The notes under the pieces were generated by a model, which was given only the letters and a program-made list of their open reading frames with translations, searched no databases and had not been told where the DNA came from. Positions 18,177 through 53,010 of a stretch of DNA of 64,000 nucleotides are shown here, piece after piece (positions within the stretch are counted from its first letter, which is position 1; each line of letters begins with the position of its first letter). Both the position numbers and the translations under genes were made by a program. Origin of the DNA: an uncultured Gemmatimonadales bacterium (GTDB lineage Bacteria > Gemmatimonadota > Gemmatimonadetes > Gemmatimonadales > GWC2-71-9). Location of the stretch: NCBI GenBank assembly GCA_963726955.1, contig CAVSEC010000007.1, positions 403,929-467,928 on the forward strand, in the 5' to 3' direction.

Positions 18177-18179
18177 GGC

Positions 18180-19046: not shown

Positions 19047-19069
19047 GAAAGTGCCATCCCTTGCATGGC

Positions 19070-19101
19070 TGAAGTATCGGAGCCGCTTGCCGATACCTTG
19101 A
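19070..19101. promoter_or_regulatory. candidate back-to-back sigma-28 promoters (HDOD gene on +, motAB on -)
   Basis: On the plus strand, TGAA(19070-73)-N15-GCCGATAC(19089-96). On the minus strand, TCAA(19101-19098)-N16-TCCGATAC(19081-19074). The two -10-like boxes form the inverted repeat GTATCGG-N9-CCGATAC. The consensus I recall is TAAA-N15-GCCGATAA. Confidence 0.4.
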
Positions 19102-19149
19102 GATGCACGGGGGCCAGGACGGGCCCGCCACAGTCATCGGGGGTATGGA

Positions 19150-37278: not shown

Positions 37279-37361
37279 CCGGTCCGGCGCCGGTGGCTGG
37301 TGGATCACAGCCGCCGGTGATCCTCCGCCGCGTGCCCTGCTCCCCCGCCCGATGCCCTCGA

Positions 37362-37389
37362 TCAAGCCAACCGCCACCCCTGCCGATAC
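37362..37389 (+). promoter_or_regulatory. sigma-28 type promoter upstream of the fifth MCP gene
   Basis: TCAA(37362-65)-N16-GCCGATAC(37382-89). It lies 69 nt upstream of the ATG at 37458. Confidence 0.5.
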
Positions 37390-37457
37390 CTGAGGGGTGG
37401 CCCCGCGGGGAATTGCTTCCCGAACGGCAACCGACTTCCGTCCTCGAGAGACTGTCC

Positions 37458-39095: not shown

Positions 39096-39713
39096 TTGCG
39101 GATTCTCATTGCGGAAGATGACGAGACCTCCCGGCGGGTCCTGGCCCGCACGCTCGAAAAGCTGGGCTACGGTGTCGCAGCCGCCCGGGATGGTGACGAG
39201 GGATGGGAGCTGTTCCAGCAGGAGCGTCCGCGGGTGCTGATCACCGATTGGATGATGCCGAGAGTCGACGGACTGGAACTGTGCCGGCGGATCCGGCGGG
39301 ATGCGGCGAACGACGGCTACACCTACCTCATGGTGCTGACGTCGCTGGCCGGGAAGAAGAACTACCTCGAGGCGATGAATGCCGGGGCGGACGACTTCCT
39401 GACCAAGCCTTTCGATCCCGATGAGCTGGTGTCGCGGCTGCGCGTCGCGGAGCGTATCCTCGGCATGGACTCCACCCTGCGGTATCTCGCGGCGATGCAC
39501 GACTGTTGTCCCGACTGCCGGCGGGTCCGCCAGCCGGATGGCCGGTGGGCCGTGCTCAAGCAGGTGGTCGCCGGGCTGACGGAGCGGTTCAAGGCGCCCC
39601 GCCGCTGTCCGGAGTGTCAGCGCAAGCAGCATGGCGTTCCGATCCGGGAGGACGGGGCGGCGGAGCAACTCACCCTGAAGCAAGGAGGCCGCAGTGCGAG
39701 CGTTGGTCGTTGA
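39096..39713 (+). CDS. response regulator, REC + C-terminal Cys4 tail (copy 1)
   Basis: It has a TTG start. The REC domain reads ILIAEDDETSRR...VLITDWMMPRVDGLELCRRIR...ADDFLTKPFD. The tail is CCPDCRRVRQPDGRWAVLKQVVAGLTERFKAPRRCPECQ. Confidence 0.75.
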   Translation: MRILIAEDDETSRRVLARTLEKLGYGVAAARDGDEGWELFQQERPRVLITDWMMPRVDGLELCRRIRRDAANDGYTYLMVLTSLAGKKNYLEAMNAGADDFLTKPFDPDELVSRLRVAERILGMDSTLRYLAAMHDCCPDCRRVRQPDGRWAVLKQVVAGLTERFKAPRRCPECQRKQHGVPIREDGAAEQLTLKQGGRSASVGR

Positions 39714-40065
39714 TGACTCGCGGGCGATCCGCAGCATTATCGGGAAGACGGTCCGGGAACTCGGCTTCGAGGTCCTCGAGGCCGGGCATGGTCTCGAGGC
39801 ACTCGCGCGGCTGGCCGAGCACGGCAAGGTCGAGCTGATCCTGGTCGACTGGAACATGCCGGAGATGAACGGCTTCGACTTCCTGTGCAAGGCGCGGGAG
39901 AATCCGGACTGGAAGGACACGGTCATCATGATGGTCACCACCGAAACCGAGATGGCCCAGATGCAGCGGGCGCTCGAGGCGGGGGCCAACGAATACGTGA
40001 TGAAGCCATTCACCAAGGACGTGCTGCGCGAAAAGCTGCAGCTGGTGGGTCTGGCCACCGCCTGA
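39694..40065 (+). CDS. cheY: single-domain response regulator CheY
   Basis: It has a GTG start. The sequence RALVVDDSRAIRSII...LILVDWNMPEMNGFDFL...MVTTE...GANEYVMKPFT is 123 aa. Confidence 0.85.
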   Translation: MRALVVDDSRAIRSIIGKTVRELGFEVLEAGHGLEALARLAEHGKVELILVDWNMPEMNGFDFLCKARENPDWKDTVIMMVTTETEMAQMQRALEAGANEYVMKPFTKDVLREKLQLVGLATA

Positions 40066-40068
40066 GCC

Positions 40069-41189
40069 ATGCGCAAGATCCGCGTGCTGGTGGTCGACGA
40101 TGCGGTGGTGGTGCGGCGCCTCGTGACCGATGTCCTGGCAGCGGACCCCGACATCGAGGTCGTGGGGACGGCAGCGAACGGTCGCCTGGCGCTCGCCAAG
40201 CTGGCCCAGCTGAAGCCGGACCTGATCACGCTCGACATCGAGATGCCGGAGATGGACGGCCTGGAGACGCTGGTGGAGCTCCGCAAGAGCCACCCACGCC
40301 TGCCGGTGATCATGTTCAGCACGCTGACCGAGCGCGGCGCGGCGGCGACGCTCGAGGCGCTCGCGCGCGGGCGCCACCGACTACGTCACCAAGCCCGCCA
40401 ACGTCGGCAGCGTCACCCTCGCCCAGGAGCGGATCCGGGAGGAGCTGATCCCGAAGATCCGGGCGCTCGCCGGAAGGGGCATGCTGTCGGCCCGGCCTGC
40501 CGCGCCCGTGGCTCCGACCGCCCGCGACTCCTCCGGCGCGCTCGCCGGCCGAGCCTGCCGGTGCGAATCGATATCCTGGCGATCGGGGTCTCGACCGGCG
40601 GCCCGAACGCGCTCGCGGAGGTGCTCCCGGCGCTGCCGGCGGACTTTCCGATCCCGATCGTCATCGTGCAGCACATGCCGCCGATGTTCACCAAGTTCCT
40701 GGCCGACCGGCTGTCGAGCGTCTCGAAGCTGTCGGTCCGCGAGGGCGAAGAGGGCGGCCTGGTGGAACCGGGCGTCGTCTGGATCGCGCCGGGCAACCAC
40801 CACATGGTCGCTCCGCCGTGACGGCGAGCAGGTCCGGCTCGCGCTGAATCAGGCGCCGCCGGAAAACTCCTGCCGACCCGCGGTCGACCTGCTGTTCCGC
40901 AGTGCGGCCGCAGCTGTACGGGAACCGGGTGCTCGGCCTGGTCCTCACCGGCATGGGACAGGACGGTCTGCTCGGCGCGGGTGCGATCCGGAGCGCCGGG
41001 GGGCAGCTCCTGGCGCAGGACGAGGCGACCTCGGTGGTCTGGGGGATGCCCGGTGCCGTCGTCGGCGCAGGGCTCGCCGACCTGGTGCTGCCGCTGGAGC
41101 GCGTTTCGGCGGAGCTGACCCAGCGTGCCGGCGTGGGACGCCTGACACGGCTGCCCGGCGCCGTGGCGCCCGCGATCACCACCCGCTGA
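40069..41189 (+). pseudogene. cheB: second CheB methylesterase, at least 4 frameshifts
   Basis: The REC domain reads RVLVVDDAVVVRRL...LITLDIEMPEMDGL...ALARG. After an extra G in the run at 40369-40371 it continues ATDYVTKPANVG.... VRIDILAIGVSTGGPNALAEVL...IVIVQHMPPMFTKFLADRL then follows. PENSCRPAVDLLFRSAA and GMGQDGLLG...LLAQDEATSVVWGMPGAV* lie in further frames. Shifts are near 40370, 40555, 40815 and 40900. Confidence 0.8.
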
Positions 41190-41205: not shown

Positions 41206-42066
41206 GTGCTGGGTCAGGCCGAATTCGACTTTCTGCGAGGGCTCGTCCGCGAGCGCTCCGCCATCGTGCTCGAACCGGGCAAGGAGTACCTGGTCGACAG
41301 CCGGCTGATGCCGCTGCTGCGCGAGGGGAGCTACACGACGGCGGCCGAACTGTGTGCGGCGCTCCGCACGGCCCCCCGCAGCGAGCTCGAACGGCGGGTG
41401 GTCGAGGCGATGACCACCAACGAGACCAGCTTCTTCCGCGACGTCCATCCCTTCGACGCGCTGCGCACACGCCTGCTGCCGGAGCTGCTCGCCGCCCGCC
41501 TGGCGGAGCGGAGGCTGCGGTTCTGGAGCAACGCCTGCTCCAGCGGGCAGGAGGCCTACAGCCTCGCCATGCTGCTGGCGGAACACTTTCCTCAGCTCCG
41601 GAACTGGGAGGTGAGCATTCTCGCGACCGACATCAGTCGCGACATGGTGCAGCGGACAGGCCAGGGCAGCTTCGGGCAGCTGGAGATGAACCGCGGCCTG
41701 CCCGCCCCGCTCCTGCTCAAGTACTTCACGCGCTCGGGGACCCACTGGCAGATCAAGCCCGAGCTGCGCCGCCTGGTGCTGGCACGCGAGATGAACCTGA
41801 TCACCTCCTGGCCGCCGCTGCCGCGCTTCGACGTCATCCTGCTGCGCAATGTCCTCATCTATTTCGACCTGGACGCCAAGCGCAACATCCTCCGCCGGGC
41901 CCGCCAGGTGCTCCGCCCGGACGGCTACCTGCTGCTCGGGAGCGCCGAGACGACCGTCATGGTCGACGACAGCTGGGAGCGTGTCAGTTGTGGTGCCTCC
42001 GTGGCGTACCGGCCGCTGGCCGAGGTGCCGGGGACGGCCGCCCGACCGGTGGGAGCGGCCCGATGA
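41206..42066 (+). CDS. cheR: second CheR methyltransferase
   Basis: It has a GTG start. EAMTTNETSFFRDVHPFDAL, LRFWSNACSSGQEAYSLAM, ATDISRDMVQRTGQGSF and VILLRNVLIYFD are present. Confidence 0.9.
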   Translation: MLGQAEFDFLRGLVRERSAIVLEPGKEYLVDSRLMPLLREGSYTTAAELCAALRTAPRSELERRVVEAMTTNETSFFRDVHPFDALRTRLLPELLAARLAERRLRFWSNACSSGQEAYSLAMLLAEHFPQLRNWEVSILATDISRDMVQRTGQGSFGQLEMNRGLPAPLLLKYFTRSGTHWQIKPELRRLVLAREMNLITSWPPLPRFDVILLRNVLIYFDLDAKRNILRRARQVLRPDGYLLLGSAETTVMVDDSWERVSCGASVAYRPLAEVPGTAARPVGAAR

Positions 42067-42648
42067 AGATCCTTGCAGTGGAAGACGATCCGGTCTCGCG
42101 CCGGATTCTCACGGCGACCCTCGAGCGCCAGGGTCACGAGGTGGTGGTGGCGCAGGATGGCCTGGAAGGGTGGGAGCACTTCGCGATCGCCCCGGTCGAG
42201 GTGGTGATCACCGACTGGATGATGCCACGCATGGATGGGCTCGAACTCATCCGGCGGATTCGGGCGCGCGACGGCGGGCGCTACGCCTACCTGATCATGC
42301 TGACCGCGCTGCGCGGCCGCACGAGCTATCTCGAGGGGATGACGGCCGGTGCCGATGATTTCGTGACCAAGCCGTTCGACAAGGAGGAGCTCCGCGCCCG
42401 CCTCCGTGTCGCGGCGCGTGTCCTGGGATTGCAGCACGAAGTGAAGCAGCTCGCAGGGGTTGCTGCCGATCTGCTCCTATTGCAAGCGGATCCGGGACGA
42501 AGTCGATGCCTGGACCCAGGTCGAGGAATACGTGGGACGCCGGACCGAGGCGCAGTTCTCCCACGGCATCTGTCCTGACTGCTATGACCGGCATCTGAGG
42601 CCGCAGCTCGAGAGCGTGCAACAGATCGACGTGCACCGGACACCCTGA
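42063..42648 (+). pseudogene. response regulator, REC + C-terminal Cys4 tail (copy 2), one frameshift
   Basis: The ATG overlaps the cheR stop. The REC domain reads ILAVEDDPVSRR...VVITDWMMPRMDGLELIRRIR...ADDFVTKPFD. After a G run at 42456-42459 the frame changes to LLPICSYCKRIRDEVDAWTQVEEYVGRRTEAQFSHGICPDCYDRHL...*. Confidence 0.75.
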
Positions 42649-42655
42649 GCGATCC

Positions 42656-43048
42656 ATGCCGACTCCCCACTCCATCCAGCCGTGCAGCTCGACGGCTCCC
42701 GTGCTCGAGGCCACGATCATCGCCAACCTCCGCGCCCTGGATGACGGCGAGGACGCCTTCCTTGCCGAACTCGCTCGCGTCTTCCGGAGCGAATCCCCCT
42801 CCCGGATTGCGGGCATCCGGCGATGTTCGGCCACCCATGCTTCCTCTCGACTGGTCGGCATGGTCCACGCGCTAAAGGGTTCGGCACGGACCCTCGGCCT
42901 GGTCCGGCTTGCGGACGTCTGCCAGCAGATCGAATCCGCGGCGACGGAGGGCCAGTTCCCCCCGCCGGCCATGCTCCAGCGGCTCGATGCCGAGTACACC
43001 GCCGCGACCCGGGCGCTGGCCGCCCTCGGCCTGCGGCAGGATCGCTGA
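42656..43048 (+). CDS. stand-alone HPt phosphotransfer protein
   Basis: The 130-aa helical ORF has the phospho-His motif in LVGMVHALKGSARTLGLVRLADVCQQIE. Confidence 0.75.
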   Translation: MPTPHSIQPCSSTAPVLEATIIANLRALDDGEDAFLAELARVFRSESPSRIAGIRRCSATHASSRLVGMVHALKGSARTLGLVRLADVCQQIESAATEGQFPPPAMLQRLDAEYTAATRALAALGLRQDR

Positions 43049-43050
43049 CG

Positions 43051-43425
43051 ATGACCACGCCCTCTGCTTCCGCGCAGGCCGGCCGCCATGCGGTCGGCGT
43101 CGACGACCTCGAAGTGGGGATGCTCCTCGCGGAAAATGTCCACGACCAGCAGGGCAGGCTGCTGCTGCCCAGCGGCACGGAACTGACCGAACGACACCTG
43201 CGCGCCTTCCAGATGATGGGCGTCGTCACGGTCAAGATTCGCGGTTCCGGCGAGGACTCCCAGGAGCCGGTGATTTCACCGGAGATTCGTGCCGAGGCCG
43301 AGGTCCGGGTGCGCGAACGGCTGCGCAATCACGATCTGGACCATCCGGTGATTGCCGAGATCCTCCGATTCGCCATCGAGCGGGAGGCCAGGCTCATCGC
43401 GGCCGGGGAGCGTCCGCATGCGTAG
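43051..43425 (+). CDS. small protein resembling the DUF3391 N-terminal module of HD-GYP proteins
   Basis: HAVGVDDLEVGMLLAENVHDQQGRLLLPSGTELTERHLRAFQMMGVVTVKI recalls the DUF3391 pattern (V..deL..GMyv..d...........g..l....i..L...Gi..v.Id). This is a from-memory resemblance only. Confidence 0.4.
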   Translation: MTTPSASAQAGRHAVGVDDLEVGMLLAENVHDQQGRLLLPSGTELTERHLRAFQMMGVVTVKIRGSGEDSQEPVISPEIRAEAEVRVRERLRNHDLDHPVIAEILRFAIEREARLIAAGERPHA

Positions 43426-44269
43426 AGCGTCCGATCTGCTCAAGGGGGTGGTCAGTATCTCGACCCTGCCGGGGGTCTACCTCCGGCTCGCCTCGGTGGT
43501 CAGCGACCCGCGCAGCTCGGCCGCCGATGTGGGCCGGGTGATCGCGGACGATCCGGGCCTCACGGCGCGCCTGCTCAAGCTGGTAAACAGCGCGATGTAC
43601 GGATTTCCCTCGAAGATCGAGACGGTCAGTCACGCGATCAGCATCGTCGGGACGGCCCAGCTCCAGGATCTCGCGCTGGCGACCTCGGTCATCCGGCTGT
43701 TTGCGAGTGTGCCGGAGAATCTGGTCACCATGGAATCCTTCTGGCGCCATAGCGTGGCCTGCGGTGTCACGGCGCGGACCCTGGCGACCCGCCGGCGTGA
43801 GTCCAACGTCGAGCGCTACTTCGTGGCCGGCCTTCTGCATGACATCGGGCGACCGGTCATGTACATGCAGATCCCCGAGGAGGCCGGCGTCGCGGTGACG
43901 CGCAGTCGGGAGTCCGGCCGGTCGCTCTTCGAGATCGAGTATGAACTCCTCGGGTTTGATCACTCGCACGTCGGTGCCGCGCTGCTCGAACAATGGAAGC
44001 TGCCGCCCAGTCTGCGCGAGCCGGTCGCCCATCATCATCACCCGGAGCGCTCGCAGCGGTTTCCGGTCGAGGCCGCGCTCGTCCACGTCGCCGACCTGAT
44101 CGCCAATGCGCTGCAATTCGGTACCAGCGGCGAGCCCGGCGTGCCGCTCCTCGCGCCCGGCGCCTGGGAGGCGATCGGCCTGGCGCCCAGCGTGCTCGGG
44201 GATGTCATGGAGGAGGCCGAGACCCACTACGAGGCGGCGGTGCAGGTCATCGCGCTGGATCGCACATGA
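43418..44269 (+). CDS. HDOD domain protein (second copy)
   Basis: LPGVYLRLASVVSDPRSSAADVGRVIADDPGLTARLLKLVNSAMYG, VAGLLHDIGRPVM and LLGFDHSHVGAALLEQWKLP are present. Confidence 0.8.
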   Translation: MRRASDLLKGVVSISTLPGVYLRLASVVSDPRSSAADVGRVIADDPGLTARLLKLVNSAMYGFPSKIETVSHAISIVGTAQLQDLALATSVIRLFASVPENLVTMESFWRHSVACGVTARTLATRRRESNVERYFVAGLLHDIGRPVMYMQIPEEAGVAVTRSRESGRSLFEIEYELLGFDHSHVGAALLEQWKLPPSLREPVAHHHHPERSQRFPVEAALVHVADLIANALQFGTSGEPGVPLLAPGAWEAIGLAPSVLGDVMEEAETHYEAAVQVIALDRT

Positions 44270-46783
44270 CCACCCCACCCGTTCCCGGCGCCGATCCGCA
44301 GTGGGTGCTCGATGCGCTCGATCTGGTCGCCTCGCTGGGCGCCTTTCGAGCCGGTGAGCAGCACGACGTCACGCCGGCCGTCGTGCTGGGCGCGGCAAAG
44401 CCCGTGCTCCGCCGACTGCTCGAGTTCGACCAGGCCGCCTTCCTCCTGCTGGAGCCCGACGGTCTCGGCTTCCAGGTGGTCGACGCCGAGCCGCGCGAGG
44501 CAGGCCCGGCGCTGGAGCGCGAGGTCGACGAACAGGTCCGCGCTGGCGTGTTCGCCTGGGCCGCGCATCGGAACTCGGCCGTCCAGGTGCCCTGCGCGAC
44601 CCAGCCGAAGCGCACCGTCCTCCTGCATGCCCTCGCCACCCGCTCGCAGGTGATCGGGATGTTCGTCGGCATCGCGGGGGAATCGCTGGAGGACACGCCG
44701 GAGGCCAATCAGAAGCTGCTGTCGATCCTGCTGAGCAACGTGGCCGGCGCGCTCGAGAGTGCCCAGCTCTATCACGCGCTCTCGGCCTACAGCGAGGGTC
44801 TGGAGCGTCTGGTGGAGGAGCGGACCCGTGAACTGGTACAATCGAACGAGAGGGCCCAGGCCGCCAACCGCGCCAAGAGCGAATTCCTCGCCAACATGAG
44901 TCACGAGCTCCGCACCCCGATGAATGGCGGTCATGGGCATGGCGAGCCTCCTGCTGGATACCGAACTCAGCGACGAACAGCGGGACTTCGCGCAGACCAT
45001 CAACTTGTCCGCGGAAAACCTCCTGACCCTGGTCAACGACATCCTGGACCTGTCCAAGATCGAGGCCGGCAAGCTGACGATCGACCTGGTGGCGATGAAT
45101 CTGCGGGAAGTCGTCGAGGAGGTGGCCACGCTGCTGGGCGTCCGCGCGGCGGAGAAGGGGCTGTCCTTCGCGGCCCGTGTAGCGCCCGGCATTCCGGAGC
45201 GGGTCCTCGGCGACCCTGGCCGCTTTCGCCAGGTGCTCACCAATCTGGCCGGCAACGCCGTGAAGTTCACGGAACGGGGGCAGGTCCTCCTGGATCTCGC
45301 GCCGGTACAGCGCGACGGCAATCGGCTCACCGTGCATCTGCGCATCGTGGATAGCGGCATCGGCATCCCGGCGGAGAAGCTGGGACAGATTTTCGACAAG
45401 TTCACCCAGGCCGATGCCTCCACCACCCGACGCTATGGCGGGACCGGATTGGGGCTCGCGATCTGCCGTGAACTCGTCGAACTGATGGGCGGGCAGATCG
45501 GTGTGGAGAGCACGACGGGGGCGGGGAGTACCTTCTGGTGCACGCTGCCTTTCGAAGTGGTGCTGCCGGAGCGTGCCGCGCCGCCCCGACTCGACGGGCA
45601 GCACATCCTGCTCTCCGCCGCCGATCCCACGGAGCGGGGTCTGGTGGCGGAGCTGCTCACCGCTGAAGGAGCGAGCGTCATTGCCGCCGCGAGCGTGGGC
45701 GAGGCGCTGCGACACCTGCAGGAAGCCATCGCCGGCCGGCGGATGGTGCATTCGCTCGTGGTGGACGCGGCAGATGTCGGTTCGCTCCTGCCGTTCCTCA
45801 ACCGCACTCCCGCCCTCCGGTCCACCCGCCTGGTGCTGCTCGCTGCCGCCGACCATCGGACCGACCCACGCCTCGACGGCCTCGGCCCCCGGGCCACCTC
45901 GGTCTTCCGCCCCTATCGCCAGCGCGATCTGCTCGAGGCGGTCGGTCCCGGGGGGCACCGGCCGATCCACCCTGCGGAGAGCGCCGAGCCGGAGGGCCCG
46001 GTCCTTGGTCCTGCCCGGATCCTGCTGGTCGAGGACGGTCTCGTGAATCAGAAGGTGGCGCTGAACATGCTGCGGCGATTCGGGTGTCGCACCGACGTCG
46101 CGGGGGATGGGGTGGAGGCGCTCGAACGACTGGCCGAGGCGGCCTATGATCTGGTGTTGCTGGATTGCCAGATGCCGCGGATGGATGGATTCACCACGGT
46201 CCGCGCGCTGCGGGAGCGGGAGTCCGCGGTGGGCCAGCACCTCCCGGTGATCGCGATGACGGCGCATGCCATGCAGGGCGACCGGGAGCGCTGTCTCGCC
46301 GCCGGAATGGACGACTACCTCACCAAGCCGGTCGACCGTGAGGCACTCGCCGGCATCCTGGCCCGCTGGATTCCAGGCCGATACCTCCTCACACGGCGGG
46401 TGAGTGAGCCTGTCGTCCTCCCGGCAACGGAGCCGAGCCTGGACTACGACGTCGTCGCGGGGCTTCAGGAGCTCGAGGCCTCGGGCGAGTCCGGACTCTT
46501 CGCGGAGGTCGTCTCGCTATTTGCCGGCCAGGGACAGCTCATGATGGAGAAGTTGCACGCTGCGGTCGCGGCGGGTGATGAGGCGGGTTGGCGGCAGGCG
46601 CTGCATGGGTTCGTCGGTACCGCCGGCTCGGTCGGGGCGCTCCGACTCTCCGAGCGCTGTCGCGAGCTGGAAGAGGGAGTGGGCGGGTTGCCCGCTGACG
46701 CCGCGGCTACTCTGGCCGAGCTCGAGGAGGCCTTCGCGGAAGCGCGGGCCGAACTCGGTCGAGTCGGTGAGCTCCGTGCGTAA
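44266..46783 (+). pseudogene. tripartite hybrid histidine kinase 1 (GAF-like, HisKA, HATPase, degenerate REC, REC, HPt), one frameshift
   Basis: The ATG overlaps the HDOD stop. The H-box is [18 protein letters not shown]. An extra G at 44929/44930 precedes VMGMASLLLDTELSDEQ.... GTGLGLAICRELVELMGG follows. The REC domain reads ILLVEDGLVNQKV...LVLLDCQMPRMDGF...[26 protein letters not shown]. The HPt motif is ALHGFVGTAGSVGA. Confidence 0.85.
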
Positions 46784-49460
46784 GGGATTGCTGTTCGTCG
46801 CCATCGCCATCCTCGGCGGAGAGCTCGGTACGATGCTGCTCCTGCCCCTGGCCCTGCCGCATGCGTCGGTCTGGCAGCAGGCGCTGGTGGATGCGAGCAT
46901 CCAGTGCCTCATCGCGGTACTCTCCCTCTACTGCTTTGTCGCCGTGCCGCTCCGGCGCGGCGCAGCGCGCGCGGTCCGCCAGAGCGCTGATGCGCTGGAG
47001 GAGGTAGTCAACGCGGTGGGCGAGGTGCTGTTCCGGACCGATCTCGACGGCCGCTGGACGTTCCTCAACCTCGCCTGGACGCGGATCACCGGATGGGAGG
47101 TGGGGGAAACACTCGGGACCGCAGCGCTCGACGCCGTGCACGAGGACGATCGTGAGGCGCTCACGCAGCTGGTCGCCGGAGTCCTCCGGGACACGTCGGA
47201 CGAGTGCCGCCTCGAGGTGCGCTTCCGGACCAGAGACGGCAGCCTGCGCTGGATGGAGTACCAGGGCCGCGCCGTGCGCGACGGGCGCGGTGCGGTGACC
47301 GGCGTCTCCGGCACGCTGCATGACGTGACGGAGCGGCACGAGGCCGGGCAGGCGCTGGCCGCCCAGACCCGCGTGCTCGAGGCACAGGCCCGCGAACTCG
47401 CGCAGGCGCGGGATGCCGCGCTCGATCTCTCACGGCTCAAGTCTGATTTCCTGGCCGGCATGAGCCACGAAATCCGCACCCCGATGAACGGCGTGCTCGG
47501 CATGTCCGGACTGCTGATCGATACCGCGCTGGACGCGGAACAACGCGGCTACGCCCAGGCGATCCAAGGCTCCGCCGACGCACTCCTCACCATCATCAAT
47601 GACATCCTGGATTTCTCCAGGATCGAGGCCGGGAAGCTCAGCATCGAGCCGCTCTCGTTCGATCTCCGCGTCGCGGTCGAGGAAGTCGCCGATCTGCTCA
47701 CGCAGCGGGCGGGCCAGCAGGGCGTGGAGCTCATCGTCCGCACCGCCCCGGACTTGCCGCGTTATGTGATCGGCGATGCGGGCCGGATCCGTCAGATCCT
47801 CACCAATCTTGCGGGCAACGCCCTCAAGTTCACCTCCCGCGGACATGTCCTGATCAATGTGGAAGTCGAACCGGGGCCGGGTCCCGTTCCCTGGATCCGT
47901 TTCTCCGTGGAGGATACCGGTGTCGGCATCGAGGCGGACCGACTGGATGCGATCTTCGACAAGTTCACCCAGGCCGAGGCCAGTACGACCCGCCGGTTCG
48001 GCGGGACCGGGTTGGGGCTCGCGATCTGTCGTCAGCTGACGGAACTGATGGGTGGGCGCATCGGAGTCGACAGCGTGCCGGGGGAGGGCTCGACGTTCTG
48101 GGCCGTGCTTCCGCTGCCGGCTGCCACGGACCCTCGCCCGATGACCACGATCGACTGCGACTTCACCAAGGTCCGCGCCCTCATCGTGGAGCCGGACGCG
48201 ACCGGCCGGCACGTCCTCACGGAGCAGCTCGATGGCCGTGGTTTGCGGGTTGCCGCCGTCGCGTCCGGCGAAGCGGCGCTGGCCGAGCTGGGTAACGCCG
48301 AGTGGGCGGACGATTCGTATGCCATCATCCTGCTCGCCGGCGACCTGCCTGACATGGAGGGGGAGACTCTCGGCCGGCTCATCAAGGCGGATGCCCGGCT
48401 GCATACCGCGGTGCTGCTCTACCTGGCGACGCACGGACGGCCGGGAGATGGGCGACGGATTCACGAGGCGGGCTTCGCCGCCTACCTGCTCAAACCCTGT
48501 CGGCAGGATGACCTCGGCGCCGCGATGGCGCTCGCGTGGCAGAACCGGGATGCCGTGGTGCCGCTTCCGCTGATCACCCGACACTCGCTGGCGGAGGCCC
48601 GCGCGGCCGACCAGCCGGCGCCGGTGCCGGCCCAGCGGGCGGGGGAGTCTCCCTGGCGGATTCTGCTGGTCGAGGACAATCCGGTCAACCAGAAGCTGGC
48701 CGCGCGGCTGCTGGAGAAGCTGGGCTGCCGGGTCGATGTCGCGGGCAACGGACGGGAGTGTGTCGAGATGCTCACCTCCCTCCCCTACGATCTGGTCTTC
48801 ATGGACTGCCAGATGCCGGAGATGGACGGCTACGAGGCCACGCGCCAGGTGCGCGCCTCCACGAGCCCGGTGGCCCATCTGCCGATCATCGCCATGACCG
48901 CCAATGCCATGGCGGGCGACCGGGAGAAGTGCCTGGCCGCGGGCATGGACGACTACATCTCCAAGCCCATCCGGAGCGATGATCTCGCCGAGATGCTGCC
49001 GCGCTGGCTTGGCGCCGGCGCGCCCCGTTCCGCTACCCCGACGGACGCGCGGCGCCCCGGCGAGGTCGGCAGCATCGAACTGAGCGCACTCGATCAGCTC
49101 CGCGCATACGACCTGCGGGGCGGCTCCCGCCTGGTGGAGGAGCTCTGCCGGCTCTTTCTCAGCGACACGCCCACGCGCATCGCCACACTCGCGGAGGCGG
49201 TGCAGCGCAGCGACGGCGACCTGGTCCACCTCATCGCCCACACGGTGAAGGGTGCCGCGTGGCTGGTCGGCGCGCGCCGGCTGGGTGCCCTCGCCGAAGG
49301 AATCGAGCAGCAGGCGGGCCAAGGCCACCTCGACCGGATCCCGGACCAGTCCGCCCGGCTGCGGCAGGAGTTCGAACGCATCCGTCCGTTCTATGAGCGC
49401 GCCCTCGCCGCCGCAGTGCGCGGCGAGCCCCTGCCCGCCGAACCGGAGCCAGCGGTATGA
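46776..49460 (+). CDS. tripartite hybrid histidine kinase 2 (2 TM, PAS, HisKA, HATPase, degenerate REC, REC, HPt)
   Basis: The GTG at 46776 overlaps the upstream stop. The PAS domain reads VLFRTDLDGRWTFLNLAWTRITGW...GVSGTLHDVTERH. The H-box is [18 protein letters not shown], and GTGLGLAICRQLTELMGG follows. The REC domain reads ILLVEDNPVNQKL...[14 protein letters not shown]...AMTANAMAGDREKCLAAGMDDYISKP. The HPt motif is IAHTVKGAAWLVGA. Confidence 0.85.
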   Translation: MRKGLLFVAIAILGGELGTMLLLPLALPHASVWQQALVDASIQCLIAVLSLYCFVAVPLRRGAARAVRQSADALEEVVNAVGEVLFRTDLDGRWTFLNLAWTRITGWEVGETLGTAALDAVHEDDREALTQLVAGVLRDTSDECRLEVRFRTRDGSLRWMEYQGRAVRDGRGAVTGVSGTLHDVTERHEAGQALAAQTRVLEAQARELAQARDAALDLSRLKSDFLAGMSHEIRTPMNGVLGMSGLLIDTALDAEQRGYAQAIQGSADALLTIINDILDFSRIEAGKLSIEPLSFDLRVAVEEVADLLTQRAGQQGVELIVRTAPDLPRYVIGDAGRIRQILTNLAGNALKFTSRGHVLINVEVEPGPGPVPWIRFSVEDTGVGIEADRLDAIFDKFTQAEASTTRRFGGTGLGLAICRQLTELMGGRIGVDSVPGEGSTFWAVLPLPAATDPRPMTTIDCDFTKVRALIVEPDATGRHVLTEQLDGRGLRVAAVASGEAALAELGNAEWADDSYAIILLAGDLPDMEGETLGRLIKADARLHTAVLLYLATHGRPGDGRRIHEAGFAAYLLKPCRQDDLGAAMALAWQNRDAVVPLPLITRHSLAEARAADQPAPVPAQRAGESPWRILLVEDNPVNQKLAARLLEKLGCRVDVAGNGRECVEMLTSLPYDLVFMDCQMPEMDGYEATRQVRASTSPVAHLPIIAMTANAMAGDREKCLAAGMDDYISKPIRSDDLAEMLPRWLGAGAPRSATPTDARRPGEVGSIELSALDQLRAYDLRGGSRLVEELCRLFLSDTPTRIATLAEAVQRSDGDLVHLIAHTVKGAAWLVGARRLGALAEGIEQQAGQGHLDRIPDQSARLRQEFERIRPFYERALAAAVRGEPLPAEPEPAV

Positions 49461-52400
49461 CAGCGCTCCTCGAGGCCAAGGCGAGGCCTCTCTGGAGAGT
49501 GCGGACGCAAGTGGCTCTGCTCGGCGCCGCGACGGCGCTGGTCCTTCTCGTCGGCGTCATCGGCACCGCGCTCATCCTGTCCGCCGCCCGGCAACGCTTC
49601 GATCGCGAGGATCAGACGACCTCGATCGGACGGGCACGCGTCGCGATCGCCCAGAGCCTCGCGGCGGACCGCAGCCGGATCACCGATTTCGCCTGGTGGG
49701 ACGAGCTGTACACCTGGATCGGTCGCCCGCACGATGGCCGGACAGATCTCTTCCTGCGCGACAACTTCACCACGACCCTCCCGGGAAAATACGGCGATCA
49801 GCTGATCGGATTCTGGAAGGCAGACCGGTCGCCGGTGTTCGAGTGGCATGCCCCGACTGCCGCCTCGTTCGCGCAGGGTGTCCCGGTGACCGACCTGTTC
49901 AACCTGCTCGACCGGGAGCAGGTCGCCTCCGGATTCGTCACGTTCGGCGGGCGGATCTATCGGCTGACGGGTGCGCTCATCAAACCCAGCGATCTCACGA
50001 GCACGGCCGCGCCACGCGGCTATCTCGTCACGGGTCAGCAGGTGGACGACAGCGCCATGTCCCGTCTCGCCGTGACCCTGCAGCAGCAGGTCAGCGTCCG
50101 CCCGGTGATCGCCAGGAGCGATACGATCGTGCGCCTGACCTTTGCCGGTGGTGACAGCGTCGCCACGACGTTCGGCGTCACCGACCTCTTCGGGGCGAAC
50201 AAGGTTCGGATCGAACTCCGAGCCTCCCGCGCCTTTCTCCGAGGCGTCGAAGGCTGGATGGCGCGCCTCATGGTCGGGGCCGCGGTGCTGGTGCTCCTCT
50301 TCCTGGGCCTGCTCATCCTGGTGGTCACCCGCTACCTGCTCCGCCCCTTTGCCCGCATCGGAGTGGAGTTCGCCGCGATGCATGCCGAAGGGCGCTTCGG
50401 CCGCCTCGGCACCGCCGCGACGGCGCGCGAGTGGGCCCTCTTCCTCGACAGCTTCAACCAGCTCGCCGACGGCCGCGAACGCGCCGAGCTGGAGCTGGCT
50501 GCCGCGCGCGATGAGGCGGTCGCCTCCACCCGGGCGAAGAGCGATTTCCTGGCCAATATGAGCCATGAGATCCGGACCCCGATGAACGCCATTCTCGGCC
50601 TCTCCGACCTGCTGCGGCGTACGCCGCTGACTGGGGAGCAGCGCCGGTACGTGGAGGCGGTACACGGCTCGGGGGAGGCGCTGCTCACCCTGATCAACGA
50701 CATTCTCGATCTCTCGAAGGTCGAGGCCGGCAAGCTCACGATCGAGACGGTGCCGTTCGACCTCCACCGCGCGGTCTCGGAGACGGTCGCGATCTTCACG
50801 CACCGGGCCGCCGAGCGAGGCGTGCGAATAGAGGAATGCATCGCGCCAGGAGTACCGGCGCGGGTGCTCGGCGATCCCGGCCGGGTGCGCCAGGTGCTGA
50901 CCAACCTGATGGGGAACGCACTCAAGTTCACCAAGGCGGGACAGGTCCTCGTTCGCGTGTTGGCGGACGGCTCGGCCGAAGAGAACGTGGTGCGCTTCGA
51001 GGTCGAGGACACCGGGATCGGCATTCCGGCCGACAAGCTTGGGCGGATCTTCGAGAAGTTCGCCCAGGCCGACTCGAGCACGACCCGGAAATTCGGGGGA
51101 ACCGGGCTGGGGTTGTCGATCAGTCGGCAGCTGGTGGAGCTGATGGGAGGCGAGGTCACCGTGCAGAGCGAGGTGGGGCGCGGGAGCACCTTCGCATTCA
51201 CCGTCCCCCTGCCGCCCTGCGTCGGGGTACCGGCCCAGCTCCCGCGCGACCTCCCGCTGACCGGGCTCCGGCTGCTGCAGCTGTCCGTGGATGGAGTCGC
51301 CGATCCGGCGGTGCGGGCGGCGCTCGTCACCGAGGGGCTCCGGGTGGTGGAGGCGGCGGTGTTCCCGTCTTCCGACGAGCTGCTGCTCGCGGCGTCCACC
51401 GAAGAGACACCATTTCATTTCGTCCTGATCGAAGGCGAAGAGATGTCGCCTGCGGTGCAGCAGGCGATAGCGGCCTGTCGCCAGGGCCTGTGGCCGGCGG
51501 TGGCGGTGGTGGTACTCCTCCGGCGCGGCTTCCGCGGCCTGGCCAGTCAGGCGCGCATCGCCGGCGCCCATGCCTGCCTGGTCGATCAGGGACCCCCAAA
51601 CGACCTCCGTGAGGCGCTCGCGGTGGCGCGCCAGGTGGTGCAGGGCGGCCTGTCGTGGCCGCTCATCACCCGACCCTGGCTGCTGGAGGCGCGTGCCGGC
51701 GAGGAAGACAGTGCGACCCCGCTCGCTGGGGAACGGGTCACAGCACCGGGAACTCGGGTGCTCGTGACGGACGATAACGAGCTCAACCGCCTCATCGCCA
51801 CCGAATACCTCCGGCGCCTCGGCGCCGACGTCCTCACGGCGGCAAGTGGCGAAGAGGCGATCGCCCTGCTGGCCGATGGCGGCATCCAGCTGGTGTTCAT
51901 GGATTGCCAGATGCCGGAGCTCGACGGGTACGAAACGACGGCGCGCATTCGCGGCATCCCCGGGGATCCCGGCCAGGTCCCGATCGTGGCGATGACCGCC
52001 AACGCGATGCAGGGGGACCGGGAGCGGTGCCTCGCGGCCGGGATGAACGATTATGTGAGCAAGCCGATCCGGGAAGCGGATGTGAGTCGCGTGCTCCGGC
52101 GCTGGTGCGGCACCGCACCCACGCCCAGGAACCCGCCGATATCGCATGAGCGGCCGGCAGCGGCGCAGGAGGCCGCACCGATCAGCGCCGGCTCGCTCGA
52201 GAGCCTCAGCTCCTCGGGGCCCGGTGGGGCGGGCCTCGCCGCCCGGCTCACGGCCCTCTACCTCCGGGAGACGCCGGCGCAGATCCGGTTGCTCCGTCAG
52301 GCGATCAGTGCCGGCGACCTTGCCGTAGCGGGCAGGATGGCCCACACACTCCGAGGGGCGTCAGGCGTGATGGGGGCACTCGGAGTCGTGGAGTTGTGCC

Positions 52401-52945
52401 AGCGCATCGAACAGGCCGTCGCGCGGGAGGCGAGCGAGGATGCGCGTGACGCGATCGGCGTGCTTGAGCGCGAGGTGGAGCGCGCCCTCCGGGCGCTCGG
52501 CGCAGCTGCCGTCGAGGTGCCGGCGCTGGACCCCGGCAAACGCGATGAATTCCGGACGATGGAAGAGGAGAGCCCGGGGTTACTGACGACGGTCTTCCAG
52601 CTCTTCCTGAGTGATGCTCCGGGACGGATCACGTCGATCGAGACCGCCCTTGCGATCGAGGATGTCCCGGCGCTCGGTCACGCGGCGCATACCCTGCGCG
52701 GGGCCGCGCTCCAGCTCGGTGCGGTCGCGCTCGGACAGACGGTGGCAGGGATGGAGGCCGACGCGCAACGAGGTGACCTGCCATCGGTGCGAGCGCGCTT
52801 CCCCGACATGATCAAGGAGTGGGAGCGCGTGCGCGAGGCACTGTTGTCGGAAATCGAACGGGCGGGATCTCAGGCGCCGGGCGTCGCCTGCGCGCCCGCA
52901 GCGCCCGCAGCGCCCGCAGCGCCCGCAGCGCCCGTGGGGAACTGA
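49457..52945 (+). CDS. hybrid histidine kinase 3 (periplasmic CHASE4-like sensor, HAMP-like, HisKA, HATPase, degenerate REC, REC, two HPt)
   Basis: TM segments flank a roughly 230-aa periplasmic region ([12 protein letters not shown]...). The H-box is [18 protein letters not shown], and [18 protein letters not shown] follows. The REC domain reads [13 protein letters not shown]...[14 protein letters not shown]...[26 protein letters not shown]. The HPt motifs are [14 protein letters not shown] and [14 protein letters not shown]. The 3' end runs into the 9-bp repeat at a suspected junction. The CHASE4 call is from memory. Confidence 0.8.
52892..52936. repeat. 9-bp tandem repeat, about 5 copies
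   Basis: GCGCCCGCA occurs 4 times (52892-52927), followed by GCGCCCGTG (52928-52936). It encodes [15 protein letters not shown] at the end of kinase 3 and (AAG)n on the opposite strand. Confidence 0.9.
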
Positions 52946-53010
52946 GGGACCGCGTCGAGCAGCGCGCGGGTGTAGGGATGCTGGGGCGTGTGCAGCAATA
53001 CGTAACTGCT
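52946..53010 (-). other. isolated fragment resembling the C-terminal oligo_HPY region of an oligopeptide/dipeptide ABC ATPase
   Basis: The minus strand reads [23 protein letters not shown]. The HPYT-ALL-A-P motif is typical of DppD/OppD-type ATPases. Only about 21 codons are present, fused in frame to the broken sbp gene. Confidence 0.35.

What the first reader, a model, noticed from the sequence alone, without database searches (positions are those of the whole stretch)
42656..52945. HPt / DUF3391-like / HDOD genes followed by three tandem paralogous tripartite hybrid kinases (five HPt domains in 10 kb)
Three overlapping or abutting genes encode kinases with different inputs: GAF-like, 2TM-PAS and a periplasmic CHASE4-like domain. 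They share the same output chain of HisKA-HATPase, a degenerate receiver, a canonical receiver and HPt. The canonical receivers carry DCQMP(R/E)(M/L)DG(F/Y) and AMTA(H/N)AM.GDRE(R/K)CLAAGM(D/N)DY. The third kinase has two HPt motifs (AHTLRGASG and AHTLRGAAL). A stand-alone HPt (HALKGSA), a small DUF3391-like protein and an HDOD protein precede them, all with 4-nt or 8-nt overlaps or 2-nt gaps.

No DNA-binding response regulator is present in the window. The only free receivers are CheY, CheB, CheB2 and the REC-Cys4 pair. This suggests a branched multikinase phosphorelay feeding chemotaxis-type outputs. A GacS/RetS/LadS-like multikinase analogy with the csrA gene in the window is pure speculation.
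Basis: partly seen in the sequence, partly recalled or inferred. Interest (0 to 1): 0.6.

Follow-up and report, generated by a model that had tools for sequence, protein, structure and literature searches.

The report
HDOD-coupled sensor kinase cluster on chemotaxis operon
Three hybrid sensor kinases really do sit at the end of a Gemmatimonadales chemotaxis operon, but the conserved core is a unit not described in the papers searched: an HDOD protein (split in two here), function unknown, always followed by a kinase with one particular GAF-like sensor domain, also found in sulfate-reducing bacteria.

Summary
Pfam confirms a stand-alone HPt, an HDOD protein and three kinases (GAF, 2TM-PAS and CHASE4 inputs). 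Each kinase has HisKA-HATPase, a degenerate receiver, a receiver and HPt, and K3 has two HPt. There are five HPt in all, and the genes are joined by 4- or 8-nt overlaps or a 2-nt gap.

- K1 is split by one extra G at 44929/30 that six relatives lack. This is probably an assembly error.
- K1, K2 and K3 are old paralogues (about 42% identity), each with its own orthologue clade. Close relatives carry K1 alone, K1-K2, K1-K3 or all three.
- The cluster follows the che operon in 11 of 11 same-genus genomes, but not in other genera.
- The constant core is small protein, HDOD and K1. The small protein is a remote DUF3391-like domain. In Desulfobacterota it is fused to HDOD.
- 11 of 12 sampled fusion genes are directly followed by a sensor kinase. 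All ten kinases I could read carry K1's N-terminal GAF-like domain.
- The native downstream neighbour is a convergent dppF-like gene, not a DNA-binding regulator. The foreign junction lies near 53.01 kb.
- The Gac/Csr analogy is unsupported.

Another first-stage note (e1-4525881) reports a similar stand-alone module in another genome. Phosphotransfer partners remain untested.

The parts
37293..39095 (+). MCP5 chemoreceptor. First gene of the accessory segment that follows cheX-PilZ. Present in only some relatives.
   Evidence: Pfam MCPsignal 6e-29 and HAMP 1.8e-16. Present in G003, G018 and G153; absent in G080 and G006.
39096..39713 (+). REC-Cys4 protein 1: a receiver with a C-terminal CxxC...CxxC tail. 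Candidate phosphorelay target.
   Evidence: Pfam Response_reg 6.7e-29. Sequence.
39694..40065 (+). CheY, the only single-domain CheY in the window. 96% identical to the G003 orthologue.
   Evidence: Pfam Response_reg 1.2e-26. Identity. Receiver census.
40069..41189 (+). cheB2 (REC plus methylesterase), broken by at least four frame changes in this assembly.
   Evidence: Pfam finds it in two pieces. tblastn with the G003 CheB2 jumps between frames 1, 2, 2 and 3.
41206..42066 (+). cheR2 methyltransferase.
   Evidence: Pfam CheR 5.7e-54.
42063..42648 (+). REC-Cys4 protein 2. Its ...HGICPDC tail lies in another frame, so there is a frame break near 42456. It ends about 8 nt before the HPt gene.
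Evidence: Pfam Response_reg 4.9e-27. The tail is read directly in the DNA.
42656..43048 (+). Stand-alone HPt protein (130 aa, motif HALKGSA).
   Evidence: Pfam Hpt 1.5e-12. Present in G003, G018, G006, G080 and G153. Absent in G024, G011, G001, G127 and G063.
43051..43425 (+). Small protein (124 aa): a free-standing, remote DUF3391-like accessory domain. It corresponds to the N-terminal half of the fused N-domain-HDOD proteins found in other phyla.
   Evidence: - No Pfam hit.
- 58 close homologues, all annotated 'hypothetical'.
- A profile built from it finds 2281 representative proteins. The long ones carry the domain at the N-terminus, followed by HDOD.
- The profile also matches the N-termini of HD-GYP proteins at E about 1e-10.
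- Family member P0066 gives a weak DUF3391 hit (E 1.9e-4).
- AF2 model has mean pLDDT 79: three beta-strands with one short helix, then two long helices.
43418..44269 (+). HDOD protein (283 aa). It keeps the HD residues (LLHDIG).
   Evidence: Pfam HDOD 2.6e-66 and HD 1.9e-12. 40-48% identical to the HDOD part of the fused proteins.
44266..46783 (+). K1, a cytoplasmic kinase: GAF-like sensor (about 44299-44775), HisKA, HATPase, degenerate receiver (45554-46015), REC (46019-46351) and HPt (46508-46750). One extra G at 44929/44930 breaks the frame just after the H-box.
   Evidence: Pfam. Read-through translation P0001. DNA alignment with six relatives. No transmembrane segment. The sensor domain has no paralogue in its own genome, yet it matches all ten readable kinases that follow fused HDOD genes.
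46776..49460 (+). K2: two transmembrane segments, PAS (46995-47327), HisKA, HATPase, degenerate receiver (48168-48512, Ala at the acceptor position), linker motif PLITRHSLAEAR, REC (48660-48998) and HPt (49140-49385).
   Evidence: Pfam. Hydropathy and GTG start. Orthologue clade with 100/99 support.
49457..52945 (+). K3: TM, periplasmic CHASE4 (49643-50098), TM, HisKA, HATPase, degenerate receiver (about 51263-51661, Glu at the acceptor position), linker [16 protein letters not shown] (51758-52087), HPt-1 (52247-52489) and HPt-2 (52595-52834). It ends in an (AP/AAP) tail encoded by a 9-bp repeat.
   Evidence: Pfam. Hpt positions. Long and short forms among relatives. The HPt-2 His is invariant, while the HPt-1 His is lost in G006 and G015.
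52946..53008 (-). Remnant of the 3' end of the native convergent dppF-like ABC ATPase gene (...[17 protein letters not shown]). The foreign, truncated sbp sequence begins right after it. This marks the true end of native DNA.
   Evidence: Minus-strand translation. The matching gene ends ...HPYTQALLAAAP in G003 and is convergent with K3 in G003 and G006.
16105..17301 (-). REC-HD-GYP (RpfG-type) response regulator next to motAB and a kinase fragment (15263-16030). A second stand-alone HDOD gene lies at 19150-20013 (+).
   Evidence: Pfam Response_reg 4.7e-24 and HD_5 3.5e-20 for the regulator; HDOD 1.5e-54 for the second HDOD gene. Receiver census.

Best explanation
The region is the 3' part of one long motility and chemotaxis transcription unit in a Gemmatimonadales genome.

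Core module. The ancient core has three genes: small protein, HDOD and K1.
- The small protein and HDOD are the two halves of a protein that is a single polypeptide in other phyla: a DUF3391-like N-domain followed by HDOD.
- That protein is almost always encoded directly upstream of, and overlapping, a cytoplasmic sensor kinase. The kinase's N-terminus carries one specific GAF-like domain.
- Across lineages the N-domain, the HDOD and this GAF-like domain stay constant. The transmitter varies: HisKA or HisKA_2, with or without PAS, REC or HPt.
- From this I infer that the HDOD pair acts on the input side of the kinase, as a bound co-sensor or regulator of the GAF-like domain.

Expansion in this genus.
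- The module was placed behind the che operon.
- K1 acquired an HPt.
- Two further unorthodox kinases joined: K2 (membrane-anchored PAS) and K3 (periplasmic CHASE4).
- Some lineages also hold a free HPt, cheB2 and cheR2, and a second REC-Cys4 protein.

Inferred signal path. Each kinase autophosphorylates, then passes the phosphate His to Asp to His within itself. Its HPt then most likely feeds the DNA-binding-less receivers encoded just upstream: the REC-Cys4 proteins, CheY and CheB2. This would let cytoplasmic, membrane and periplasmic cues modulate flagellar behaviour. The degenerate receiver and its conserved PLITRHxLxEAR linker probably gate the true receiver.

Shown versus inferred. Shown: domain content, intact catalytic residues, synteny, the fusion and the neighbourhood statistics. 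Inferred: physical interaction, the direction of control and the phosphotransfer partners.
For: - Domains and catalytic motifs are intact.
- Genes are packed with overlaps and show no terminator signal above chance.
- K1, K2 and K3 each form an orthologue clade (100/100, 100/99, 97/84).
- che linkage holds in 11 of 11 same-genus genomes: G000, G003, G018, G006, G024, G011, G080, G153, G127, G063 and G001.
- Only small-HDOD-K1 is kept in three other genera of the family and in one other family. There K1 lacks an HPt and no che genes are nearby.
- The small-protein profile finds 2281 representative proteins. All 8 long ones tested are N-domain plus HDOD fusions.
- The fusion family has more than 1238 members and includes Desulfocurvibacter africanus, Desulfovibrio and Syntrophales.
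- 11 of 12 sampled fusion genes are followed on the same strand by a sensor kinase, overlapping or within 22 nt. Flanking genes otherwise differ.
- All 10 of those kinases with DNA available share K1's N-terminal domain at 28-35% identity over about 160 aa. That domain has no second copy in the 3.66-Mb genome itself.
- No DNA-binding regulator lies downstream in relatives, and a dppF remnant survives in the window.
- Published HDOD proteins repeatedly affect flagellar motility: PSPTO_4229 (PMC11813219); GsmR, CJ0248, SadB, PFL_0554 and PFL_5871 (PMC11004494).
Against: - No biochemical or expression data exist. No interaction or phosphotransfer has been shown.
Two of them (P0208 and P0213) share the same synteny, and one (P0316) has no kinase.
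- 9 of the 11 kinases are hybrids that end in a REC. This fits equally well with HDOD being the output of that REC.
- K2, K3 and HPt come and go between close relatives, so they may not work with K1 at all.
- K1 itself is frame-broken in this assembly, as are cheB2 and REC-Cys4 2.
- CheY here is probably the main CheA substrate, so its position need not imply input from these kinases.
Confidence: 0.55

Rival explanations
1. HDOD, together with the small protein, is the output of K1 rather than its input partner. The phosphorylated C-terminal receiver of the hybrid kinase controls the HDOD protein in trans. This would be a split version of the known REC-HDOD response regulators.
For: - 9 of the 11 kinases next to fused HDOD genes are hybrids ending in a REC. 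Most have no HPt and no response regulator nearby.
- K1 orthologues outside the genus end at the REC.
- REC-HDOD regulators such as GsmR exist and control motility (PMC11004494).
Against: - The D. africanus-type partner kinase (GAF_3-HisKA_2-HATPase) has no receiver.
- The part of the kinase that is always conserved is the N-terminal GAF-like domain, not the receiver.
Confidence: 0.25
2. The three kinases are independent two-component sensors whose real partners are orphan regulators elsewhere in the genome. Their place behind the che operon would be a neutral consequence of insertion next to an existing kinase gene, with no functional network.
For: - K2 and K3 are present or absent independently among close relatives, and the stand-alone HPt is optional.
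- The tree does not unite K1, K2 and K3. K2 is as close to a second tandem kinase pair on contig C12 as to K1 or K3.
- The genome holds 13 Hpt matches, so such kinases are common here.
Against: - Start and stop codons overlap along the whole run.
- The position behind the che genes is the same in 11 of 11 genus members.
- The K1, K2 and K3 clades have congruent branching, which suggests joint vertical inheritance with losses.
- No DNA-binding regulator is found in or after the operon.
Confidence: 0.15
3. The accessory module is decaying in this particular organism. On this view the frame breaks in cheB2, REC-Cys4 2 and K1 are real, so K1 is a pseudogene and the cluster is a relic.
For:
- cheB2, cheR2 and HPt have been lost outright in some relatives.
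Against:
- There are no stop codons, deletions or raised divergence within the broken genes. K1 shows 83% and 66% identity to G003 on the two sides of the break.
- Other indel patches hit flagellar genes such as flhA and flhB.
- The assembly scores only 59% complete although it has just 20 contigs, and the contig tail is foreign and full of indels.
Confidence: 0.3
4. This is a GacS/RetS/LadS-like multikinase network acting through CsrA. The first reader raised this only as speculation.
For: A csrA gene is present in the window at 14944-15096. Several hybrid kinases lie close together.
Against: - csrA sits about 28 kb upstream among flagellar genes.
- No GacA-type regulator is found in the window or downstream in relatives.
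- Every kinase has its own HPt, unlike RetS and LadS.
- No evidence for an Rsm sRNA was sought or seen.
Confidence: 0.03

Closest known systems
Unorthodox (tripartite) hybrid sensor kinases: the ArcB, BarA/GacS, TorS, EvgS, BvgS and RpfC class
   Same: HisKA with an H-box His, an HATPase with N, G1, F and G2 boxes, a receiver with the acceptor Asp, and a C-terminal HPt with His, all in one polypeptide.
   Different: - An extra degenerate receiver is inserted between the HATPase and the true receiver.
- K3 has two HPt domains.
- No cognate DNA-binding regulator is adjacent.
- The genes are embedded in a che operon.
ShkA of Caulobacter crescentus: DHp-CA-pseudo-receiver-REC, activated when c-di-GMP displaces a linker motif from the pseudo-receiver (bioRxiv 10.1101/675454)
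   Same: The same domain order, HisKA-HATPase-degenerate REC-linker-REC. K2 and K3 have a strongly conserved motif in the linker (PLITRHxLxEAR). A PilZ protein and a REC-HD-GYP protein in the same motility island point to c-di-GMP signalling nearby.
   Different: - ShkA does not appear among the 60 PDB matches listed (of 105) for K2's degenerate receiver.
- The linker motif is not DDR.
- The c-di-GMP-binding residues were not mapped.
- ShkA uses a separate HPt protein (ShpA, from my own knowledge; the passages read do not name it), whereas these kinases have their own.
Multikinase phosphorelays that converge on one HPt: P. aeruginosa HptB with PA1611, PA1976, SagS and RetS (PMC5085249, PMC5992135); Vibrio LuxN/LuxQ/CqsS-LuxU (from my own knowledge, not from a paper read here)
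   Same: Several hybrid kinases with different sensor domains, a free HPt protein, outputs without a DNA-binding domain, and control of motility or biofilm formation.
   Different: In those systems the kinases lack an HPt and depend on the shared one. Here every kinase has its own, and the free HPt is optional among relatives.
Che-like clusters with an auxiliary kinase: the Rhodospirillum centenum Che3 cascade with CheS3 (PMC3868531)
   Same: A non-CheA histidine kinase encoded inside a che cluster, next to a CheY-like receiver and CheB/CheR.
   Different: - By its published description CheS3 is a REC-plus-kinase hybrid without an HPt; its exact domain order was not checked here.
- That cascade controls cyst formation.
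- There is no HDOD partner.
- Here the che cluster also holds a complete CheA-CheW-MCP set.
HDOD proteins that affect motility: PSPTO_4229 (PMC11813219); GsmR, CJ0248, PFL_0554, PFL_5871 and SadB (PMC11004494, PMC12075610)
   Same: A stand-alone or receiver-linked HDOD domain genetically tied to flagellar motility, with no demonstrated catalysis.
   Different: In the papers read here, none is described with a DUF3391-like N-domain or as the constant neighbour of a GAF-type kinase. SadB carries a different N-terminal domain (YbaK-like, from my own knowledge) and acts as a proteolysis adaptor.
Bd1817-family DUF3391-HD-GYP phosphodiesterases (bioRxiv 10.1101/2021.11.05.467447)
   Same: An N-terminal accessory domain of about 120 aa, described as beta-strands followed by two long helices. 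The AF2 model of the small protein shows the same order of elements. The small-protein profile matches the N-termini of HD-GYP proteins in the same phylum.
   Different: - The Pfam DUF3391 model does not score the window protein.
- The Foldseek match to Bd1817 is insignificant (rank 42, E 0.3).
- Here the partner domain is HDOD, not HD-GYP, and the accessory domain is a separate gene.

Membership tests
Unorthodox hybrid histidine kinase (HisKA-HATPase-REC-HPt) | HisKA dimerisation domain with the phospho-accepting His in an H-box | tested here: met
   SHELRTPMN (K1) and SHEIRTPMN (K2, K3). Pfam HisKA E 1.9e-24 to 1.2e-10. In K1 the domain is interrupted by the 1-nt insertion.
Unorthodox hybrid histidine kinase (HisKA-HATPase-REC-HPt) | HATPase_c with N, G1, F and G2 boxes | tested here: met
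   Pfam HATPase_c E 1e-29 to 1.8e-33. NLxGNAxKFT, DxGxGI, F(D/E)KFxQA and GGTGLGL can be read in all three.
Unorthodox hybrid histidine kinase (HisKA-HATPase-REC-HPt) | Receiver with an acidic pocket, acceptor Asp, and conserved Thr/Ser and Lys | tested here: met
   Each has (E/D)D, (L/M)DCQMP, AMTA and (S/T)KP. These are conserved in orthologues.
Unorthodox hybrid histidine kinase (HisKA-HATPase-REC-HPt) | C-terminal HPt with the phosphorylatable His | tested here: met
   Pfam Hpt in K1, K2 and K3 (two in K3). The His aligns in all of them. The K3 HPt-1 His is replaced by Q or R in G006 and G015, whereas the HPt-2 His is invariant.
HDOD (PF08668) | Match to the family profile above the curated cut-off | tested here: met
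   223 bits against a cut-off of 22.9, over profile positions 2-196 of 196.
DUF3391 (PF11871), the N-terminal domain of Bd1817-type HD-GYP proteins | Match to the family profile | tested here: not met
   No hit for the window protein at E<=10. A six-frame search of the genome with PF11871 does not find it.
DUF3391 (PF11871), the N-terminal domain of Bd1817-type HD-GYP proteins | Remote homology or shared fold with the HD-GYP N-terminal accessory domain | tested here: inconclusive
   For:
- Profile A1 matches residues 9-94 of 362-380-aa HD_5 (HD-GYP) proteins at E 1e-8 to 1e-10.
- Family member P0066 scores 22.4 bits against DUF3391, below the 27.8 cut-off.
- The AF2 topology fits the published description.

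Against:
- Those HD-GYP proteins themselves have no DUF3391 hit.
- The Foldseek match to Bd1817 has E 0.3.
ShkA-type c-di-GMP-gated hybrid kinase | Domain order DHp-CA-pseudo-receiver-linker-receiver | tested here: met
ShkA-type c-di-GMP-gated hybrid kinase | c-di-GMP-binding residues on the alpha4-beta5-alpha5 face (R324, Y338, R344) and a DDR tether in the linker | tested here: inconclusive
   The linker motif is PLITRHxLxEAR, not DDR. ShkA is not among the 60 PDB matches listed, of 105. No residue-level mapping was done.
GacS/RetS/LadS-Rsm/CsrA network | A NarL-type regulator (GacA) and CsrA-titrating sRNAs controlled by the kinases | tested here: not met
   No DNA-binding receiver is found in the native window or downstream in relatives. 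csrA lies in the flagellar block at 14944-15096. sRNAs were not searched for.
HptB- or LuxU-type convergent phosphorelay | Hybrid kinases that lack an HPt and share one free HPt protein | tested here: not met
   All three kinases have their own HPt. The free HPt is missing in five relatives that still keep the kinases.

The most novel reading that the evidence does not exclude
The DUF3391-like N-domain plus HDOD protein (fused in Desulfobacterota, split into two genes in Gemmatimonadota) and the kinase carrying one specific N-terminal GAF-like domain would form a signalling module that I found undescribed in the papers searched and that is conserved across phyla. In it the HDOD protein is the dedicated physical partner of a histidine kinase, acting either as a co-sensor on the GAF-like domain or as a non-receiver output. 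That would give the HDOD domain, whose function has long been unknown, its first defined biochemical context.
Probability: 0.45. Interest if true: 0.7.

Novelty: new variant of a known kind. Interest (0 to 1): 0.45.

Why it matters
The kinases themselves are ordinary members of a well-known class, and clusters of hybrid kinases are common.

The new point is the constant core. HDOD is one of the most widespread bacterial signalling domains without a mechanism. Several HDOD proteins alter flagellar motility, but by unknown means. Here an HDOD protein with a DUF3391-like accessory domain appears as a fixed, translationally coupled neighbour of kinases that share one particular sensor domain. This holds in at least two phyla, and in one of them the HDOD protein is split into two genes. 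That gives a concrete hypothesis of partnership that simple binding and phosphorylation assays can test.

The Gemmatimonadales series (K1 only, K1-K2, K1-K3, K1-K2-K3, with or without a free HPt) is also a natural experiment. It shows how a phosphorelay grows by adding modules behind a chemotaxis operon.

Tried and rejected
- **Pfam and the PF11871 genome search on the small protein:** no hit.
- **PDB sequence profile search and Foldseek on its AF2 model:** nothing significant. Best E values were 0.047 and 8e-3, to unrelated beta-barrel subdomains.
- **Recent tandem duplication of the three kinases:** rejected. Pairwise identity is only about 42%, the five HPt are 21-37% identical to one another, and each kinase has its own orthologue clade.
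- **K3's second HPt as a copy of the free HPt:** rejected, at 28% identity.
- **Sequence kinship with ShkA:** not seen.
- **Promoter and terminator scan:** counts were at or below the shuffled expectation, so it was uninformative.
- **The look-up of sequencing runs:** The extra G in K1 and the contig junction could not be checked against reads.
- **The search for related loci in genome contigs:** it returned only close Gemmatimonadales relatives because it works from exact peptide patterns.
- **Looking for the rest of the dpp-gcvP neighbourhood in this assembly:** absent. The native continuation is known only from relatives.
- **rpoB and rpoC as a gauge of assembly-wide frame errors:** both are intact. 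Indels therefore come in patches rather than everywhere, and the question of artefact versus pseudogene stays open.
- **Gac/Csr analogy:** rejected.

Full report
**Setting.** The window is G000:C7:403929-467928, from a 3.66-Mb, 20-contig assembly scored 59% complete. Related contigs are named Gemmatimonadales or Gemmatimonadaceae MAGs. Bases 1 to about 53,000 are native, at 66-70% G+C. They hold flagellar export and rod/ring genes, csrA, a kinase fragment with a REC-HD-GYP regulator, motAB, a stand-alone HDOD gene, chemoreceptors, cheA, cheW, cheB1, cheR1, cheX and a PilZ gene.

**The observation.**
- HPt, 42656-43048.
- HDOD, 43418-44269.
- K1, 44266-46783: GAF_3, HisKA, HATPase, REC, Hpt.
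- K2, 46776-49460: PAS, HisKA, HATPase, REC x2, Hpt.
- K3, 49457-52945: CHASE4, HisKA, HATPase, REC, Hpt x2.

All five HPt carry the phosphorylatable His. The quoted motifs are all present. The gene junctions are a 2-nt gap, two 8-nt overlaps and two ATGA overlaps. K2 has two N-terminal hydrophobic segments, K3 has two that flank CHASE4, and K1 has none.

The 'degenerate receiver' is seen directly by Pfam only in K2 (E 8e-11). For K1 and K3 it rests on profile-profile comparison with receivers (E 1.4e-6 and 1.6e-6). At the acceptor position K1 keeps Asp but has lost the Thr and Lys. K2 has Ala and K3 has Glu. K2 and K3 share a conserved linker, PLITRHxLxEAR, between the degenerate and the true receiver.

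**Corrections.**
- K1 is not one open frame. Directly after SHELRTPMN the frame shifts. DNA alignment with six relatives shows a single extra G at 44929/44930, GGCGGTC against GGC-GTC. I read it through with a four-letter codon to obtain P0001.
- cheB2 has at least four frame changes, and the Cys-rich tail of REC-Cys4 2 lies in another frame.
- A separate first-stage note (e1-3570470) attributes these breaks to G-run length errors. I confirmed the K1 site.
- rpoB and rpoC are intact, so errors come in patches.
- The small protein has no Pfam hit.
- The 'junction at 52.9 kb' is about 60 nt further on. On the minus strand, 52946-~53008 still encodes ...[17 protein letters not shown], the C-terminus of a dppF-type ABC ATPase. 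It then runs into a truncated sulfate-binding gene.

**What lies downstream in the real genome.** In G003 and G006, K3 is the last gene and faces a convergent dppF/dppD/permease/binding-protein operon. That operon is followed by lplA-like, gcvP, gcvH, coaE, tdk, HU and a DEAD-box helicase gene. The dppF remnant in the window shows the same arrangement existed here. The rest of that region is missing from the assembly, and the last ~15 kb of contig C7 are foreign.

**Age of the kinases.** Pairwise identity is about 42% over the transmitter, and the HPt domains are 21-37% identical to one another. A maximum-likelihood tree of 30 transmitter sequences gives separate K1, K2 and K3 clades, with support 100/100, 100/99 and 97/84 and congruent internal branching. 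The relation among the three, and to a second tandem pair on contig C12, is unresolved. These are old paralogues inherited together, not recent tandem copies.

**Synteny.** All 11 same-genus genomes with enough contig place the cluster directly after cheX-PilZ-(MCP5)-REC-Cys4-cheY-cheB2. Content varies:
- K1-K2-K3 (long form, two HPt) plus a free HPt: G000, G003, G018, G080, G006.
- K1-K2-K3 (short form, no degenerate receiver, one HPt), without a free HPt: G024, G011, G022. G023, whose locus covers only K2-K3, has the same short K3.
- K1-K2 with a free HPt: G153.
- K1-K3: G063.
- K1 alone: G001, G127.

In G006 and G015 the first HPt of K3 has lost its His, while the second keeps it. Outside the genus only small-HDOD-K1 remains. 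This was seen in G192, G176 and G158 (same family) and G274 (another family). In G192 and G274, whose kinases I read in full, K1 ends at the receiver without an HPt; no che genes lie nearby in any of the four, and the G192 and G274 flanks are unrelated. In a sample of 301 genomes of the phylum, the small protein was found in 24.

**The core module.**
- The small protein has 58 close homologues, all annotated 'hypothetical'.
- A profile of them (A1), scored against 1.84 billion representative proteins, finds 2281 at E<=1e-3 and 944 at E<=1e-10. Most are free proteins of about 110-120 aa. A second class is 405-440 aa long, with the domain at the N-terminus.
- All eight long proteins tested are N-domain plus HDOD fusions.
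- The window's small and HDOD genes, which overlap by 8 nt, are therefore a split form of one protein.
- The fused family has more than 1238 members at E<=1e-10. They are annotated only as 'HDOD domain-containing protein', in Desulfocurvibacter africanus, Desulfovibrio, Syntrophales and unclassified 'Deltaproteobacteria'.
- I looked up the genomic context of twelve members, chosen by longest contig. In eleven, the next gene on the same strand is a sensor histidine kinase, overlapping or at most 22 nt away. The kinases are GAF_3-HisKA_2-HATPase (two loci with the same synteny), PAS-HisKA-HATPase-REC (seven), GAF-HisKA-HATPase-REC (one) and HisKA-HATPase-REC-Hpt (one). Flanking genes otherwise differ.
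- In all ten loci with DNA, the first ~160 residues of that kinase are 28-35% identical to K1's N-terminal GAF-like domain. The same domain has no second copy in K1's own genome, where the next best match has E 0.03.
- One kinase (L077) aligns with K1 over its full length at 39% identity, with Pfam Hpt at its C-terminus.

**Is the small protein 'DUF3391-like'?** Not by the Pfam model. However:
- A1 matches residues 9-94 of 362-380-aa HD-GYP (HD_5) proteins in another class of the phylum at E 1e-8 to 1e-10.
- One family member gives a sub-threshold DUF3391 hit (E 1.9e-4).
- The AF2 model (pLDDT 79) has beta-strands followed by two long helices. That is the order of elements published for the Bd1817 N-domain (bioRxiv 10.1101/2021.11.05.467447).
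- Foldseek gives no significant match.

I call it a remote relative of that accessory domain. The cited survey states that DUF3391 occurs almost only with HD-GYP, so the pairing with HDOD is not covered there.

**Mechanism (inference).** Across lineages the N-domain, the HDOD and the GAF-like sensor stay constant, while the transmitter changes. The simplest reading is that the HDOD pair works with the kinase's sensor domain as a co-sensor or regulator. The main rival is that the kinase's terminal receiver controls HDOD, as in fused REC-HDOD regulators. In this genus the module gained HPt domains and two more sensors, and it sits beside receivers that lack a DNA-binding domain. A phosphorelay into CheY, CheB2 and the REC-Cys4 proteins, and perhaps the REC-HD-GYP protein, is therefore plausible but untested. 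The order degenerate receiver-linker-receiver is the one shown for ShkA to gate kinase activity through c-di-GMP (bioRxiv 10.1101/675454). That is an analogy only.

Published genetics link HDOD proteins to flagellar motility (PMC11813219, PMC11004494, PMC12075610). Four library searches returned no paper whose title, abstract or HDOD passages, as far as I read them, describe the HDOD-kinase pairing.

**Verdict.** The kinases are new members of a known class. The conserved pairing of HDOD with a GAF-type kinase, in fused and split forms, is the part worth following.

Noticed in passing
window 40069-41189: cheB2 changes frame at least four times within 1.1 kb relative to the intact 374-aa orthologue of G003, while cheY and cheR2 on either side are clean.
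   Followed up: partly
window 52946-53011 and onward to the contig end (C7:456874-471853): About 20 codons of the native convergent dppF-like gene survive, then foreign DNA follows: a truncated sbp and cys genes, then genes at 56% G+C. The remaining dpp, gcvP and gcvH region seen in relatives is absent from the whole assembly. The last ~15 kb of the contig therefore look like a chimeric join.
   Followed up: partly
window 52890-52940: K3 ends in a 9-bp tandem repeat (GCGCCCGCA x4) that encodes [14 protein letters not shown]. Orthologues in G003, G018 and G080 end differently and lack it.
   Followed up: no
window 15263-20013: A kinase fragment, a REC-HD-GYP (RpfG-type) regulator, motB and motA on the minus strand, then a second stand-alone HDOD gene (287 aa, 37% identical to the first). 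The same HDOD and REC-HD-GYP pair sits upstream of the che cluster in G001, G080, G153 and G127.
   Followed up: partly
G000:C12:129262-135854: A second tandem pair of hybrid kinases with HPt lies here. They are 47% and 43% identical to the K2 transmitter. Matching tandem hits with similar spacing appear in several relatives (G003:C38, G018:C35, G001:C2, G021:C1, G019:C3).
   Followed up: no
K3 orthologues in G006:C12 and G015:C448: The first of K3's two HPt domains has Gln or Arg in place of the phospho-His, while the second HPt keeps His in every long-form orthologue. This suggests HPt-2 is the working one.
   Followed up: partly
window 48540-48580 and 51660-51700 (K2 and K3 linkers): A conserved motif, (L/W)PLITR(H/P)xLxEAR, lies between the degenerate and the true receiver. 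It is kept in K2 and long-form K3 orthologues but is absent from K1.
   Followed up: no
JGI metagenome 3300072015, contig with P0270 (no DNA held): This fused HDOD gene plus PAS hybrid kinase is preceded by cheD and followed by a single-domain receiver and a stand-alone HPt. It is a second, independent case of the module next to chemotaxis-type and phosphorelay parts.
   Followed up: no
window 3043-7279: flhB, flhA and flhF/flhG appear as overlapping or partial open frames. The FlhB profile matches only positions 228-335, and the FHIPEP profile only 1-389 of 657. This suggests another patch of frame breaks in the flagellar genes.
   Followed up: no
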